Source: Trypanosoma brucei (taxonomy: Eukaryota). From it: a stretch of DNA of 64,000 nucleotides. Both the position numbers and the translations under genes were made by a program. The first letter of the stretch is position 1, and each line of letters opens with the position of its first letter. This document shows positions 52,331 through 58,873 of the stretch, piece after piece. The notes under the pieces were generated by a model, which saw only the letters and a list, made by a program, of their open reading frames with translations, had not been told where the DNA came from and ran no database searches. The stretch is from NCBI GenBank assembly GCA_000002445.1, contig CP000068.1, forward strand, positions 1,184,001-1,248,000. The letters are read 5' to 3'.

Positions 52331-53764
52331 ATGGCACAGGGCAAAGCTGCTTTTTTACTAATATTGTGTGTTTGCTCCTGCTGGCACCTCTCTTCAGCGG
52401 ACACAGAAGCGATCAAGGAAACAGCAATCAGAGAAGTGTGTGAGCTTTCAAAAACATTGAAAGGCACACCCTTTGCCATAACTCAGAGATGGAAACATAT
52501 CGAGGCCTTGATTTCGACCTTTGAGAGGTTGCTGCGAAGACTGGAGTTAATTAACCTTCTGTGCTGTGAAGACGAAGATAGCGTAAGCATTTTGAAACTC
52601 TACACCCAAAGCCAGATTGCAAGTTTAGAAGTGCTAATGAAGGCTCTTATGGAAAGGGGACCGAACGCCGCGGCGTTCGCGGCATACGCAGCAGGGAGGT
52701 TGGATGAGTTTGTTGCCGTATTCACGCAGTCGGTGGGGAAGACACCGCGAACAAACGCGTGCGTAATTGCGGATTCCGGCATGAGAAGGTGGGACCAGGC
52801 AGCGGCGAATGGATGTGAGCATAACGTAGTGGGAAACGCGGCTCAGAATTTCCTTGATTTGGAAGTCTTATTGAAAACGACATTGTTGACAAGAGGAAAC
52901 CAAAAGGGAGAAAGCAAGCAGTGCCCACTAACAAAGAGCGATTTGAGTGGCTATGCGACGGTGGACGACGCCCCTGACAGAATAAAGTGGGCAGGCGGGC
53001 TTTTGACCGTACACAAAATGTATGGATGGAAAGAAGACGGATGGTCTACAAACGGAAGGAACGTCGAATTCATCAAAGAGGCGGCAGAACAATTCAAAGA
53101 AATTAAAAAAGTCCTCGAGAAACAGCTGCCGAACGGCCTTGACAGCATCGACGCACTAAACGCTTTTTTGAAAAGGGAAGAGCCGGACGCGATGATGAAA
53201 GATGCAATCAAAACGCACCAGGGGTGGGAAGAAGAGAAAGACGATAAAACGATAATTGAGAAAATCAAGGAGATATTTGGAATTGGGGAACCATGTGCAA
53301 AGATTGAATTTATCGAAACGCTTATAAGGACTAATGTTTCTGCTAGAGAATCGGGCTGCACAAAGCAAATTGACTTGTTTCAACTCACTACTCGGCAAAT
53401 GGAAGAAGTAAAGGAACGCCGCCTCGATCAATTACGTAAAACGAAGACAGAAGCGGAGAATTATCCACGGGACATGGCAAAATTGTCGGCATTAAAAACT
53501 AATACAAACACAAAGCAAGGTGAGTACGGAGAGTGCCAGTTTCTATGCAAGCGATACAAGAACGCTAAAGCAGAAAACGAGGCAACGGATGCCGCACCCA
53601 ACTCTCCGGCAGCAGCAAGGAAGTGTCGTGGGAAAACGGAAAACGATTGCAAAGATGAGTGCAAATGGGACGGAAATGTCTGCAAAAATTCGGACGAAAC
53701 ATCAGATTACTCCAGAGTGTGTTACTCCCCTCTTTTTCCAGTCTTACTTCTTTCCTTATTTTAG
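52331..53764 (+). CDS. VSG-related surface glycoprotein: signal peptide, VSG-like N-terminal domain, VSG-type C-terminal cysteine motif and a non-canonical hydrophobic GPI-signal tail
   Basis: N-terminal signal MAQGKAAFLLILCVCSCWHLSSA. C-terminal CRGKTENDCKDECKWDGNVCKNS matches the T. brucei VSG C-terminal-domain motif (C..C...CKWE/D...CKDS). The tail SDYSRVCYSPLFPVLLLSLF is hydrophobic. Polypyrimidine tract 52255..52278 and AG upstream. Confidence 0.55.
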   Translation: MAQGKAAFLLILCVCSCWHLSSADTEAIKETAIREVCELSKTLKGTPFAITQRWKHIEALISTFERLLRRLELINLLCCEDEDSVSILKLYTQSQIASLEVLMKALMERGPNAAAFAAYAAGRLDEFVAVFTQSVGKTPRTNACVIADSGMRRWDQAAANGCEHNVVGNAAQNFLDLEVLLKTTLLTRGNQKGESKQCPLTKSDLSGYATVDDAPDRIKWAGGLLTVHKMYGWKEDGWSTNGRNVEFIKEAAEQFKEIKKVLEKQLPNGLDSIDALNAFLKREEPDAMMKDAIKTHQGWEEEKDDKTIIEKIKEIFGIGEPCAKIEFIETLIRTNVSARESGCTKQIDLFQLTTRQMEEVKERRLDQLRKTKTEAENYPRDMAKLSALKTNTNTKQGEYGECQFLCKRYKNAKAENEATDAAPNSPAAARKCRGKTENDCKDECKWDGNVCKNSDETSDYSRVCYSPLFPVLLLSLF

Positions 53765-55170
53765 TTTTTTCAGTGAACATCTTACATAAACTTTGGTAGA
53801 AAATCTTAAGCACCTGTTTTGAATAACAACACTTCGGCAGCCTGTGTCGGTTGCTTGTCTTAAAAAGACATTCTTCTGCTTCATTGTACCCCTTTGTTTT
53901 AATACACAAGAATCAAAGAGATTGTTATGAAGGCAAAACGAGAAAAAAAAATGTCGCAAAGGCAAGAAATGCCGGGAATTTAAGAAGACATCCTCCCCGC
54001 CAAAGTTTTTTTTGGCCCAACGAACCGTACGAACTTGTATAGACTGGTGTAGACGAACCGTACCTGATCGAAACGAAAGTGTTTTTAAGCGTGAAGAAAT
54101 GCGATGAAGGACAAATGCGAAAATTCGAGGCAGGGACTTTAGGGAATGCCCAAACACTGTTGAGGATATTTTTAAAAAAAACCTCAGAATAAATCACCAT
54201 CTCGACGCGGTTTCAGAGCCCAATATGTAGGAACGACGGGGAAGGGAACCGAGGACCCGCAGCTAACTCCGCCAGGATTGGGTTACGAAAATAACCACGC
54301 GTGGGGCGTCAACAACAACAGCACACAAAAAAAAAACGCCGTTGCTAACCTGCAAAGCATCGAGGAAAATAATGACCTTTTTCCCTCGGTCTTTTCAGCA
54401 TGATGGCCTTCTCAGCGCAGTGGTGACACAACCTCAGCGGACATTTCCTCACCTTCCTTTGAGTTTATCTAAACTCTTCCCGTATACATCATTTTCTACA
54501 GGCGCAGCTCCTGTGGATAATTCATTCAATATTAAGGTTAATTCCTCCAAAGGGTATGCAAAATGGGTTGGCAGCTCCTCGCTATTGGTAATTCCATCTC
54601 CGAAACTTCGGACGTTTTTGTCCGCCACCTTTTCATATATTTCCACAATCACATTCATAAGTGCTGTTTTGTTGTTTGTTTTTTTGAAGCTCATTCTTCC
54701 ACCCAACACCGCACCCCCCTCCAAACGTCCCGCAATTCTTATCAGCAAAAAACAAAAAAACATTGCTTCATCCCTTTCCTACCTTATGACTCATTTTAAC
54801 AAAAGGAAAACGTTCAGGGAGTGTGAAAGCATAAACAATGACTAAACACGCGGGATTGCCTCAATAACGCATCGCGGAATACAATCACACATTACAGAAA
54901 AGAAATATAACCAATTTTATCACCAGTGCATTTCCCTGCACTTCCCCCCCCCCCTCTCCCTCAAAAAGGAACAAACAAGACGAAGGAAACACAACACACG
55001 AGGGGTTTATATTACATTTATTTATTTTTGGTTCATGCGTATGAAACCATATCCGTATGACACGTTTTTGCGCAGTGCATTGCACTTACTTTTTACACCA
55101 AGTGGATAAAAAGATAAACAAAACAAAAGGAAAAAAGGAAAAGAAACAATGGGAAAACACAATCAAGAAT
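53765..55170. other. Convergent strand-switch region (end of + strand transcription unit meets end of - strand unit); probable RNA polymerase II termination zone
   Basis: All confident genes up to 53764 are on +; all confident genes from 55171 onward are on -. No convincing ORF in between. Confidence 0.6.
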
Positions 55171-57320: not shown

Positions 57321-58054
57321 TGACGCGTCAATGGTGTTGTTCTTGGGAACAACAAGCTGGAAAGAGGAGAACAGGGGAAAAAAATATGAGGCGTTCCGTA
57401 CGCACATAAAATATGTTAATGAGGGGTAGATAAACATATAGGTAAAACTTATTAACAACAACGTTAAGAACACGTAACAACAAGAAATTAAAAAATCACA
57501 ATGAGAAAAAAAGGAAATAGATATGATCACCAAGAAAAAAAAAAGTTGTGCTAGTTATATTTCTTGTGTGCCTCAGTGTTCCCAAGAATGGGAACATAGA
57601 AACTAAGAAGAGGTTGCAGAGAAGTCGATAAATGCTGTAAAATTACGATAACACTTTAATATATATATATATATATGGAAACCAAAAAAAAAATAGTGGG
57701 AAAACAAGAAAAAAATAAAGAGGGGGACAACGCACAAAAACAAAAATGGTGGCGGCAGTCGTGAAGAGTAAATCCCTTTCTCGATGGCGCAGTAACTGCC
57801 TCTGCACGCGTAAATAAACTGTAAAATACAACAGTGCACTAAAAAGGAAATAATGGGGAAAAGGGCGGGGGAAAGCGTGTGCGCCGCCGAAATATGATCA
57901 ATTTTGGAGTAAAACAAGGAAAAGGGTGAATGGTAATGACGATGGTCAAATGGCAGGGAAATATTCCCATTTGTGGCGACACGCCCACGCTGGTCACATG
58001 AGCAGCAGCAGGATCATCATTAGCTGCGAGCCCCCCCCCCATAATATTTTTTTC

Positions 58055-58873
58055 TTAGAAAGAGAGGGCCGTGGCGGCAAGCATTACGAGAAGGAATTTC
58101 ATTGAAGTACCCACAGCCCCACTCGCTTCATCTTCCTTATCTTCATCGGAGTCGTCATCATCGATTTCAGGGAACTGAGCTGCCTCTTCTTGTGCCTCAC
58201 TCTTGGCATCATCAGCTGCATCGGCAGCCCTAACAGTCTCAGCGGTAGCTTTCTGAAGCTCCTCCAGTTTATTAGCCGCTTCATTCGCCTCCTGGAGGTA
58301 TTCCTCAGCGAAATCTTGCATGTACAGCCCTCTCAGGTTGTGAGCCGCTCTCGTAAGCGCTTCTGGCGTGACGTCGTCAGCAACAGCGGTGGCACATTCT
58401 TTAGCCAACTGCTTAATTGTTTCATTCCCTCCGTGCTCCGCGGCGCCCCTCAGCAAACCACTGAAGACACTTTCATATTCACTCTCAAAGCTGTCAAGCG
58501 CCCGGGCGAAGCGTTTTACTTCCATCGCTGCTGCTTCGGCACGTACAGATGCCTCATACGCCACCGTGGCGGCCTCCCGAGCTCTCTTTGCAGCCTGCTG
58601 CTGTTCCGATGTGCCGCCAACGGCACCCGCCTCCGCACGCTTCGCGGCCTTTTTGCCTTCCTTCGCTGCTTTTTTGCTTTCCTCCAATGCGCCTACAGCC
58701 TCGAACCTCCGCTCTTCCGTCAGTAGCGGAAGTTTACGCAGTTGTTTCGCCACCTCACATAGTGCTTTCGTCTGTTCCAATTCGGCTTCAAGATTATCGT
58801 TCGCGTAGGCGGTCGGTGCGAATATGAAGTGAAGACTGAGGCCGAGCACAAACAAAGCGCGGGAAATCATCAT
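58055..58873 (-). CDS. BARP/GARP-like alanine- and glutamate-rich, predicted helical, GPI-anchored surface protein
   Basis: Signal MMISRALFVLGLSLHFIFAPTAYA. Mature region strongly A/E/K-rich with heptad-like helices. Acidic DDDDSDEDKEDE preceding the hydrophobic C-terminal GPI signal SGAVGTSMKFLLVMLAATALSF. Confidence 0.5.
   Translation of the reverse strand: MMISRALFVLGLSLHFIFAPTAYANDNLEAELEQTKALCEVAKQLRKLPLLTEERRFEAVGALEESKKAAKEGKKAAKRAEAGAVGGTSEQQQAAKRAREAATVAYEASVRAEAAAMEVKRFARALDSFESEYESVFSGLLRGAAEHGGNETIKQLAKECATAVADDVTPEALTRAAHNLRGLYMQDFAEEYLQEANEAANKLEELQKATAETVRAADAADDAKSEAQEEAAQFPEIDDDDSDEDKEDEASGAVGTSMKFLLVMLAATALSF

What the first reader, a model, noticed from the sequence alone, without database searches (positions are those of the whole stretch)
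52331..58873. Three different putative GPI-anchored surface-protein genes converge on one strand-switch region
A VSG-related gene (+), a Cys-rich mucin-like protein (-) and a BARP/GARP-like protein (-) lie within 6.5 kb. The first pair are arranged tail-to-tail across the convergent switch, and the 6.3 kb ORF-poor degenerate stretch lies upstream. This looks like a chromosome-internal surface-coat mini-locus. Such loci at transcription-unit ends are plausible sites for life-cycle-stage-specific control through 3'UTR-mediated or chromatin effects near termination zones.
Basis: inference. Interest (0 to 1): 0.55.

Follow-up and report, generated by a model that had tools for sequence, protein, structure and literature searches.

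The report
Known trypanosome surface-gene cluster at transcription stop
Three unrelated surface-protein genes do sit where two transcription units of Trypanosoma brucei chromosome 5 collide, but all three genes and the chromatin-based silencing of one of them are already published, so this is a correct re-discovery rather than a new finding.

Summary
The window is T. brucei TREU927 chromosome 5. By exact protein match, the three ORFs are Tb927.5.3990 (atypical VSG, +), Tb927.5.4010 (ESP4, -) and Tb927.5.4020 (factor H receptor FHR, GARP family, PDB 6XZ6, -). Coordinates, orientation, signal-peptide plus GPI-type architecture and the 6.3 kb ORF-poor spacer are all confirmed. Two labels fail: ESP4 is an orphan with an 8-Cys head on an acidic, N-glycosylated stalk, not a mucin, and nothing shows the spacer to be degenerate coding sequence.

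The regulatory idea is already experimental fact. This locus is Figure 5/6 of Reynolds 2014: a base J/H3.V peak in the spacer stops Pol II before 3990 in bloodstream forms. FHR mRNA depends on ZC3H20/21. The three genes follow three different stage programmes, so this is not one co-regulated coat unit.

My own additions:
- The locus is colinear across Trypanozoon.
- 3990 is under purifying selection (dN/dS 0.13-0.22).
- The Tb927.5.4000 ORF is probably not coding.
- ESP4's Cys domain carries old mosaic alleles (dS 0.2-0.39).
- T. vivax has a tandem HpHbR array in FHR's slot.
- In Leishmania the same transcription unit ends at a telomere.

Verdict: real, correctly read, already known.

The parts
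44864..45988 (+). Tb927.5.3980, mitochondrial ribosomal protein uL15m. It is the last gene of the + transcription unit upstream of the spacer in which Pol II terminates in bloodstream forms.
   Evidence: Exact match; Pfam Ribosomal_L27A; it is gene 1 in Reynolds 2014 Fig 5.
45989..52330 (+). 6.3 kb ORF-poor spacer. The literature places the base J/H3.V 'PTU-internal' Pol II termination site here. It contains a divergence hot spot at about 48000-49500.
   Evidence: No ORF above 175 aa. No Pfam domain in six frames except a sub-threshold zf-CCHC near 47474. No tRNA or Rfam hit. Colinear in three other Trypanozoon genomes, with about 9% divergence at 48-49.5 kb against 1-3% elsewhere. The J/H3.V peak and the run-on data come from the literature and cannot be seen in the sequence.
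52331..53764 (+). Tb927.5.3990, 'VSG, atypical'. It has an A-type VSG N-terminal domain, a borderline C-terminal domain and a GPI-type tail. It is silent in bloodstream forms and its mRNA is detected in salivary-gland and RBP6-induced forms.
   Evidence: It is 98-100% identical at the same length in six strains or subspecies. dN/dS is 0.13-0.22. No VSG 3'UTR 16-mer is present. Expression.
54375..54845 (+). Tb927.5.4000, annotated hypothetical ORF (156 aa). It is probably untranslated and part of the read-through transcript.
   Evidence: No Pfam family. The frame is broken by a 1-nt insertion in T. equiperdum OVI and a 1-nt deletion in T. b. equiperdum, and is intact in T. b. gambiense. Its RNA rises together with 3990 on loss of J.
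54846..55170 (.). Convergence point of the two transcription units, between the ends of the last ORFs on each strand.
   Evidence: ORF orientation; sequence read.
55171..56085 (-). Tb927.5.4010 = ESP4. Layout: signal peptide, 8-Cys head (residues about 21-135), acidic N-glycosylated disordered stalk (136-280), GPI-type tail. It is an orphan restricted to Trypanozoon and the last gene of the - unit.
   Evidence: ESP4 label and listing in a GPI-anchor screen. Slender > stumpy mRNA. Head dS 0.20-0.39 against stalk 0-0.02, with mosaic alleles.
55016..55039 (+). Downstream arm of a 24-nt inverted repeat flanking ESP4.
56781..56804 (-). Upstream arm of the same inverted repeat (23/24 complementary).
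56086..58054 (-). AT-rich region (GC 0.37) between FHR and ESP4. It presumably holds the FHR 3'UTR and the ESP4 splice-acceptor region.
   Evidence: Composition. Three UAUUUUUU motifs on the sense strand, not significant against local shuffles. One polypyrimidine tract at 56431-56442.
58055..58873 (-). Tb927.5.4020 = FHR, the factor H receptor. It is a GPI-anchored three-helix bundle of the GARP/Fam50 family.
59191..59469 (-). LSm-domain protein (92 aa), the housekeeping gene immediately upstream of FHR in the - unit.
59989..62442 (-). Mitochondrial ribosomal protein uS10m (LysM domain). It serves as the anchor gene for the synteny comparisons.

Best explanation
This is the convergent end of two RNA polymerase II polycistronic units on T. 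brucei chromosome 5. Each unit ends in lineage-specific genes for GPI-anchored surface proteins, and each of those genes is expressed in a different life-cycle stage by a different mechanism.

Plus strand:
- Pol II transcribes through the housekeeping genes ADK and uL15m.
- In bloodstream forms it then stops inside the 6.3 kb spacer, at chromatin marked by base J and histone H3.V, through the PNUTS-JBP3-Wdr82/PP1 complex.
- The atypical VSG Tb927.5.3990 and the doubtful ORF 4000 are therefore transcriptionally silent (shown, literature).
- Base J is absent from procyclic forms. 3990 mRNA appears in salivary-gland parasites and during RBP6-driven metacyclogenesis, so the block is probably relieved in the fly (inferred).

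Minus strand:
- uS10m, LSm, FHR and ESP4 lie in one transcription unit.
- FHR is off in slender forms and on in stumpy, procyclic and mesocyclic forms, where it binds host factor H to disarm complement (shown, literature).
- ESP4 mRNA is higher in slender than in stumpy forms, and ESP4 carries a label from the cell-surface proteome (literature).
- Opposite behaviour of two adjacent genes in one unit implies mRNA-level control (inferred). For FHR this is supported by its dependence on ZC3H20/21.

The co-location is best explained by evolution rather than shared function. Ends of transcription units and synteny breaks are where trypanosomes gain, lose and keep poorly expressed or regulated species-specific surface genes.
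For: Identity of the genes: exact protein look-up, Pfam, PDB 6XZ6.

Architecture. Convergent orientation.

Termination mechanism on this very locus:
- Reynolds 2014 Fig 5/6, with the J+H3.V peak, RNA-seq, RT-qPCR and nuclear run-on.
- PJW complex.
- PP1-1.
- J absent in procyclics.

3990 expression outside bloodstream forms.

3990 is maintained by selection. dN/dS is 0.13-0.22, and the 477-aa ORF is intact in six strains.

FHR:
- Function and stage profile.
- Midgut-specific transcript.
- Fam50 subfamily iii.
- ZC3H20/21 dependence.
- Low bloodstream-form mRNA, rpkm 4 against a median of 30.6.

ESP4:
- Surface-proteome label and GPI screen.
- Slender > stumpy mRNA.
- Noted earlier as a fast-evolving GPI protein at a strand-switch region.

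Evolutionary lability of the slot:
- T. vivax has a tandem HpHbR array directly after LSm, and a retroelement relic after uL15m.
- L. donovani has a telomere 1.7 kb after uS10m.
Against: No protein-level evidence for Tb927.5.3990 was found in the literature I could read. Relief of the J/H3.V block in insect stages is inferred and has not been measured at this locus.

The role of the ESP4 and FHR 3'UTRs is inferred. The only motif I tested (UAUUUUUU, three copies downstream of FHR) is not enriched beyond local composition (p about 0.08).

The position of the J peak cannot be seen in the sequence and rests on published ChIP/IP data from strain 427.

ESP4 surface localisation rests on a label in a supplementary table.
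Confidence: 0.88

Rival explanations
1. The cluster marks a fossil chromosome end. An ancestral subtelomere that carried surface-protein genes became internal when two ancestral chromosomes fused head-on in the trypanosome lineage. On this reading the surface genes and the telomere-like J/H3.V chromatin are leftovers of that origin. This concerns origin and is compatible with the best explanation of present-day function.
For: In L. donovani the uS10m ortholog, with the same upstream neighbours, is the last gene before TTAGGG arrays that start 1.7 kb downstream. T. cruzi and T. rangeli contigs break just after uS10m/LSm. T. melophagium has only short tandem repeats and about 9 kb without conserved genes after LSm. 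T. vivax has a tandem receptor-gene array and a retroelement relic at the same junction. VSG-type genes and J/H3.V are typical of T. brucei subtelomeres and telomeres.
Against: No telomere-repeat relic lies in the window or in any trypanosome locus fetched. Leishmania could equally have undergone a fission. The position of the uL15m-side unit in Leishmania was not obtained. Contig breaks are not evidence of chromosome ends. Surface genes could have been inserted long after any fusion.
Confidence: 0.3
2. The three genes form a functionally coordinated surface-coat cassette that is switched as a unit by the local chromatin of the termination zone.
For: Physical clustering of the only three SP+GPI-type genes of the window. 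J/H3.V chromatin is documented nearby. CTR9 RNAi raised the read count of FHR, 3 kb from the stop region.
Against: The expression profiles differ. 3990 is silent in bloodstream forms, ESP4 is higher in slender than in stumpy forms, and FHR is stumpy/procyclic/mesocyclic. The section text reports increases on J loss only for the two genes downstream of the peak; the fold change of gene 4 (4010) is shown only in Fig 5D, which is not held. The CTR9 effect on FHR was not confirmed by Northern blot. The three proteins are unrelated in sequence.
Confidence: 0.04
3. Tb927.5.3990 is a decaying VSG relic with no function of its own. The locus is then merely a silenced junk zone next to two real surface genes.
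For: It is silent in bloodstream forms and lacks the VSG 3'UTR 16-mer. Its C-terminal domain is below the Pfam cut-off. Its neighbour ORF 4000 does look non-coding. Many J-silenced genes are pseudogenes.
Against: The 477-aa ORF is intact in six strains or subspecies at 98-100% identity. dN/dS is 0.13-0.22 with dS 0.013-0.037, which indicates purifying selection. Its mRNA is detected specifically in salivary-gland parasites and during RBP6-induced development.
Confidence: 0.08

Closest known systems
Base J/H3.V 'PTU-internal termination' locus on T. brucei chromosome 5 (Reynolds et al. 2014 NAR Fig 5/6; Kieft et al. 2020; PP1 paper, NAR 2024)
   Same: It is the same locus. Genes Tb427.05.3980, 3990, 4000 and 4010 are the four genes assayed there, and the spacer is the termination zone.
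   Different: Nothing differs in substance. Those papers use the locus as a termination reporter and do not discuss the surface-protein nature of the cluster or FHR.
FHR, the T. brucei factor H receptor (Macleod et al. 2020; PDB 6XZ6)
   Same: The ORF at 58055-58873 is the same protein: phmmer E=1.4e-132 to 6XZ6 over residues 25-251, and an exact match to Tb927.5.4020.
   Different: None.
ESP4 (surface-labelled proteome; Gadelha et al. 2015). Also flagged as a fast-evolving GPI protein at a strand-switch region in Jackson et al. 2010.
   Same: The ORF at 55171-56085 is Tb927.5.4010.
   Different: Added here: divergence is confined to the 8-Cys head, with dS raised as much as dN and with mosaic alleles. 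There is no detectable relative in 1.84 billion representative proteins.
Canonical VSG genes of subtelomeric arrays and expression sites
   Same: A-type N-terminal domain (Pfam E=7.5e-76), a Cys-containing C-terminal subdomain, a signal peptide and a hydrophobic tail.
   Different: It is chromosome-internal at a Pol II unit end. No tandem repeat is found upstream and no 3'UTR 16-mer is present. It is nearly invariant between strains and under purifying selection. Pairwise similarity to solved VSGs is only E about 1e-4.
T. vivax HpHbR tandem array
   Same: It occupies the same genomic slot as FHR+ESP4: directly downstream of LSm, at the end of the uS10m unit, facing uL15m. Like FHR, its genes encode proteins with a signal-type N-terminus and a GPI-type C-terminus. 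Members of both families are GPI-anchored three-helix-bundle receptors for host blood proteins.
   Different: It belongs to a different Pfam family (HpHbR, not GARP). No sequence similarity is found by BLASTP or hhalign. It is multi-copy, whereas FHR is single-copy.

Membership tests
VSG (variant surface glycoprotein), A-type | A-type N-terminal domain (Pfam PF00913) | tested here: met
   E=7.5e-76, 256 bits, residues 9-362 on profile positions 2-361 of 367.
VSG (variant surface glycoprotein), A-type | VSG C-terminal domain (Pfam PF10659) | tested here: inconclusive
   20.9 bits against a cut-off of 21.4. Weak match to the ILTat1.24 C-terminal domain 2JWH, E=2.3e-4.
VSG (variant surface glycoprotein), A-type | Signal peptide and C-terminal GPI-addition signal | tested here: met
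   Hydrophobic N-terminus and C-terminal tail with no internal TM, by a crude hydropathy test only. No dedicated GPI predictor was available.
Canonical antigenic-variation VSG gene | Conserved 16-mer TGATATATTTTAACAC in the 3'UTR (own knowledge of VSG mRNAs) | tested here: not met
   No match within 3 mismatches anywhere in the window.
Canonical antigenic-variation VSG gene | Subtelomeric or array context with upstream 70-bp repeats, and strain-variable sequence | tested here: not met
   The gene lies at the end of a housekeeping Pol II unit. No tandem repeat is found at 50-52.3 kb. It is 98-100% identical in six strains, with dN/dS 0.13-0.22.
GARP/BARP family (Pfam PF16731; Fam50) | Full-length match to the GARP profile | tested here: met
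   E=4.4e-51, residues 33-225 on profile positions 2-193 of 193. Assigned to Fam50 subfamily iii in the literature.
GARP/BARP family (Pfam PF16731; Fam50) | Elongated three-helix bundle with a GPI anchor | tested here: met
   The sequence matches the crystallised chain 6XZ6 (E=1.4e-132), which the authors describe as a three-helix bundle. The GPI signal is predicted only.
Mucin-like surface protein | Long Ser/Thr/Pro-rich O-glycosylation region | tested here: not met
   The ESP4 stalk (residues 136-280) is 13.8% S+T and 7.6% P, but 21.4% D+E and 20% N+Q, with 6 N-x-S/T sequons.
Base J/H3.V PTU-internal termination site | Peak of base J and H3.V upstream of the silenced terminal genes, and loss of elongating Pol II across it | not testable with these tools
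   DNA modification and histone occupancy are not visible in sequence. They are documented experimentally for this locus.
Base J/H3.V PTU-internal termination site | Silenced genes are the last genes of a unit, just before a convergent strand switch | tested here: met
   3990 and 4000 are the last + strand ORFs before the first - strand ORF end at 55171.
HpHbR family (for the T. vivax genes in the syntenic slot) | Full-length match to Pfam PF20933 and to solved HpHbR chains | tested here: met
   E=3.7e-95 over profile positions 1-243 of 243. 4E40 and 5JDO at E=1e-22.

The most novel reading that the evidence does not exclude
The junction may be an ancient, conserved 'cradle' for blood-protein receptors at a former chromosome end. 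The unit that ends with uS10m runs into a telomere in Leishmania. In T. vivax the slot after LSm holds a tandem array of haemoglobin receptors (HpHbR). In T. brucei it holds the factor H receptor plus the orphan ESP4, facing a conserved VSG-fold gene. If so, FHR and HpHbR could be positional descendants of one ancestral three-helix-bundle gene that have diverged beyond sequence recognition. The J/H3.V silencing of the opposite side would then be inherited subtelomeric chromatin. ESP4's old, mosaic head-domain alleles would mark it as a bloodstream-stage ligand-binding or antigen-exposed protein under balancing selection.
Probability: 0.25. Interest if true: 0.5.

Novelty: already known. Interest (0 to 1): 0.22.

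Why it matters
As stated, the finding adds nothing new. FHR is a solved and functionally tested receptor, ESP4 is catalogued, and the atypical VSG with its upstream spacer is the standard reporter locus for base J/H3.V/PNUTS-dependent Pol II termination.

Its value here is as a positive control. A sequence-only reader correctly picked out a locus where trypanosomes break the rule that all regulation is post-transcriptional.

The side observations point to open questions that can be tested:
- What does a conserved, selected VSG-fold protein do in fly or metacyclic stages?
- What does ESP4's polymorphic head bind?
- Did receptors such as FHR and HpHbR arise at old chromosome ends?

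Tried and rejected
- **Structure prediction.** AlphaFold2 models of ESP4 (mean pLDDT 42.4) and of the atypical VSG (mean pLDDT 32.4) used only 2-sequence alignments and were too poor for a fold search. No fold search was run.
- **VSG homologue search.** My search for the atypical VSG used too strict a threshold (1e-10) and returned only its own cluster. It therefore says little about its nearest VSG relatives.
- **Spacer content.** No tRNA, tmRNA or Rfam family is present in the window. There are no relic copies of the three genes and no internal repeats. 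tblastx found no similarity to the T. vivax retroelement relic.
- **RBP10-type motif.** UAUUUUUU is enriched window-wide (18 against 4.5 expected). The three copies downstream of FHR are not significant against local-composition shuffles (p about 0.08), so I do not use them as evidence.
- **FHR versus TvHpHbR.** No homology by BLASTP or hhalign (probability 0.2%).
- **Look-ups that failed.** The TREU927 VSG was not on record. No T. congolense contig beyond 3.4 kb was available, so T. congolense synteny is untested.

Full report
**What the sequence is**

Exact-sequence look-up places the window on chromosome 5 of Trypanosoma brucei brucei TREU927.
- 52331-53764 (+) is Tb927.5.3990, annotated 'VSG, atypical'.
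- 55171-56085 (-) is Tb927.5.4010, annotated hypothetical.
- 58055-58873 (-) is Tb927.5.4020.

The neighbours are housekeeping genes. On the + strand they are an adenylate kinase and mitochondrial uL15m (Tb927.5.3980). On the - strand they are an LSm protein (59191-59469) and mitochondrial uS10m. All large ORFs up to 53764 are on +, and all from 55171 on are on -. The region is therefore a convergent strand switch.

**Checking the observation**

Pfam gives a full-length A-type VSG N-terminal domain for 3990 (E=7.5e-76) and a borderline C-terminal domain (20.9 bits against a cut-off of 21.4). For 4020 it gives a full-length GARP domain (E=4.4e-51).

All three proteins have a hydrophobic N-terminus, a hydrophobic C-terminal tail and no internal membrane span. 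Applying the same crude test to 26 candidate genes of the window flags exactly these three.

The stretch 45989-52330 has no ORF above 175 aa. It also has no Pfam domain in six frames apart from a sub-threshold zinc knuckle, no tRNA or Rfam family and no relic of the three genes. 'ORF-poor' is therefore right, and 'degenerate' is unproven.

The middle protein is not a mucin. Its stalk has 13.8% Ser+Thr and 7.6% Pro, but 21% Asp+Glu, 20% Asn+Gln and six N-glycosylation sequons. Its 115-residue head carries eight cysteines.

A small annotated ORF, Tb927.5.4000 (54375-54845, +), lies between the 'tail-to-tail' pair.

**What is already known about these genes**

*Tb927.5.4020 is FHR, the factor H receptor.*
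- Residues 25-251 match PDB 6XZ6 (E=1.4e-132).
- Macleod et al. 2020 show a GPI-anchored three-helix bundle that binds complement factor H.
- It is undetectable in slender bloodstream forms, induced in stumpy forms, and abundant (about 200,000 copies per cell) in procyclic forms. It is present on mesocyclic forms and absent from epimastigotes.
- Its deletion lowers tsetse infection.
- Earlier work placed it in Fam50 subfamily iii and found its transcript to be midgut-specific.

*Tb927.5.4010 is ESP4.*
- It is listed in that paper's screen for GPI-anchored receptors with the cell-surface-proteome label ESP4.
- Its mRNA is 2.76-fold higher in slender than in stumpy forms.
- Jackson et al. 2010 had already singled it out as a fast-evolving protein with a signal peptide and a GPI site at a strand-switch region.

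*Tb927.5.3990 and 4000 are the published example of 'PTU-internal termination'.*
- Figures 5 and 6 of Reynolds et al. 2014 show this locus, with genes 3980, 3990, 4000 and 4010.
[quoted passage not shown] Nuclear run-on signal is lost before them.
- Read-through and mRNA appear when J is removed.
- The same assay was later used for PNUTS, JBP3 and Wdr82 and for PP1-1.
- Base J is absent from procyclic forms.
- 3990 was the only VSG differentially expressed in salivary-gland parasites.
- It is also listed among transcripts that were unaffected in every RNAi and knockout line tested during RBP6-driven development.

**How the locus most likely works**

On the + strand, Pol II passes uL15m. In bloodstream forms it terminates in the spacer at J/H3.V chromatin through the PNUTS-JBP3-Wdr82/PP1 complex, which silences 3990 (shown). 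Relief of this block in fly stages is inferred from the absence of J in procyclics and from the salivary-gland and RBP6 data.

On the - strand, FHR and ESP4 are adjacent in one transcription unit but are regulated in opposite directions. Their control must therefore act on the mRNA (inferred). FHR mRNA falls when ZC3H20, or ZC3H20 and ZC3H21, are depleted. I looked for UAUUUUUU motifs downstream of FHR and found three, but this is not more than local composition gives.

The three genes thus follow three stage programmes under two layers of control. They are co-located, not co-regulated.

**New computations**

1. *Synteny within Trypanozoon.* The whole locus, spacer included, is colinear in T. 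b. gambiense (97.3% identity), T. b. equiperdum (97.6%) and T. equiperdum OVI (99.4% and 98.6%).
2. *Selection on 3990.* The atypical VSG has the same length and 98-100% identity in six strains or subspecies. Its dN/dS is 0.13-0.22. It lacks the VSG 3'UTR 16-mer and any upstream tandem repeat. It is a conserved VSG-fold gene under purifying selection. It is neither an antigenic-variation VSG nor a decaying relic.
3. *Coding status of 4000.* The ORF is frame-shifted in T. equiperdum OVI and truncated in T. b. equiperdum. It is probably not coding, although assembly error cannot be excluded.
4. *ESP4.*
   - It has no relative outside its own group in 5.8 billion proteins or in 1.84 billion representatives.
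   - Divergence is confined to the Cys head. There, dS is 0.20-0.39 and dN is 0.15-0.20. In the stalk dS is 0-0.02, and in neighbouring genes it is 0-0.04.
   - All eight Cys are kept. The alleles are mosaic: TREU927 and T. b. equiperdum share one type, T. b. gambiense has another, and OVI is mixed.
   - This looks like old alleles kept and recombined, not simple positive selection (dN/dS is 0.5-0.7 in the head).
5. *A second hot spot.* Divergence of about 9% lies at 48000-49500 in the spacer.

**Synteny outside Trypanozoon**

In T. vivax the same two units converge. After uL15m comes a retroelement relic (RVT_1 and RNase_H hits). After uS10m and LSm comes a tandem array of HpHbR genes (Pfam E=3.7e-95; 4E40 at E=1e-22), exactly where T. 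brucei has FHR and ESP4. FHR and TvHpHbR show no sequence similarity.

In Leishmania donovani the uS10m ortholog, with the same upstream neighbours, is the last gene before telomeric repeats that start 1.7 kb away. T. cruzi and T. rangeli contigs break at this point. T. melophagium has only short repeats and no conserved genes for about 9 kb after LSm. T. congolense could not be examined.

These data fit the established view that synteny breaks and strand-switch regions collect species-specific surface genes (own knowledge of the TriTryp comparative-genomics literature). They also allow, without proving it, the reading that this junction is a former chromosome end.

**Verdict**

The finding is therefore already known and of low interest as stated. 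The side observations on the T. vivax HpHbR array, the Leishmania telomere and ESP4 allele structure are modest leads.

Noticed in passing
L007:16576-20573 and L011:7439-16189 (T. vivax); corresponds to window 55171-59190: In T. vivax the slot directly downstream of LSm, which holds FHR+ESP4 in T. brucei, holds a tandem array of at least six HpHbR (haemoglobin receptor) genes facing uL15m. In the Y486 reference used by Lane-Serff 2016 the gene carries a '00' identifier (TvY486_0024220), which I read as unplaced.
   Followed up: partly
L014:12470-14923 (Leishmania donovani LR812653.1): The uS10m ortholog is the last gene on its chromosome, and TTAGGG arrays begin 1.7 kb downstream. The T. brucei convergent junction therefore corresponds to a chromosome end in Leishmania.
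   Followed up: partly
window 55681-56025 (ESP4 codons 21-135): Divergence is sharply localised to the 8-Cys head (dS 0.20-0.39, dN 0.15-0.20), against near-zero in the stalk. The alleles are mosaic among TREU927, T. b. gambiense and T. equiperdum, and all Cys are conserved.
   Followed up: yes
window 48000-49500: A second divergence hot spot (about 9% against T. b. gambiense and T. b. equiperdum, compared with 1-3% around it) lies inside the ORF-poor spacer. The T. equiperdum OVI assembly breaks exactly here (contigs end at 48240 and restart at 49280).
   Followed up: no
window 55016-55039 and 56781-56804: A 24-nt inverted repeat (23/24 complementary, none expected in shuffles) flanks the ESP4 gene at 1.74 kb spacing. 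Both arms are present, slightly diverged, in T. equiperdum OVI. Its meaning is unknown; it could be an insertion scar or long-range pre-mRNA pairing.
   Followed up: partly
window 54375-54845 (Tb927.5.4000): The annotated hypothetical ORF is frame-shifted in T. equiperdum OVI (1-nt insertion at 54548) and truncated in T. b. equiperdum (1-nt deletion at 54753). It is probably not protein-coding.
   Followed up: yes
L002:20300-21125 (T. b. equiperdum ESP4): The ESP4 stalk carries about seven single-base deletions, while the adjacent atypical VSG has none. Whether this is a real pseudogene or assembly error is unresolved.
   Followed up: no
window 47474-47515 (+): An isolated CCHC-like zinc-knuckle remnant (CYTCGRVGHYSATF; Pfam zf-CCHC E=0.02, below the cut-off) lies in the spacer. 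It could be a retroelement or gene relic, or chance.
   Followed up: partly
L013:14885-16474 (T. melophagium): About 1.5 kb of short tandem repeats, read as long repetitive ORFs in three frames, follows LSm. There is no recognisable gene for about 9 kb after that.
   Followed up: no
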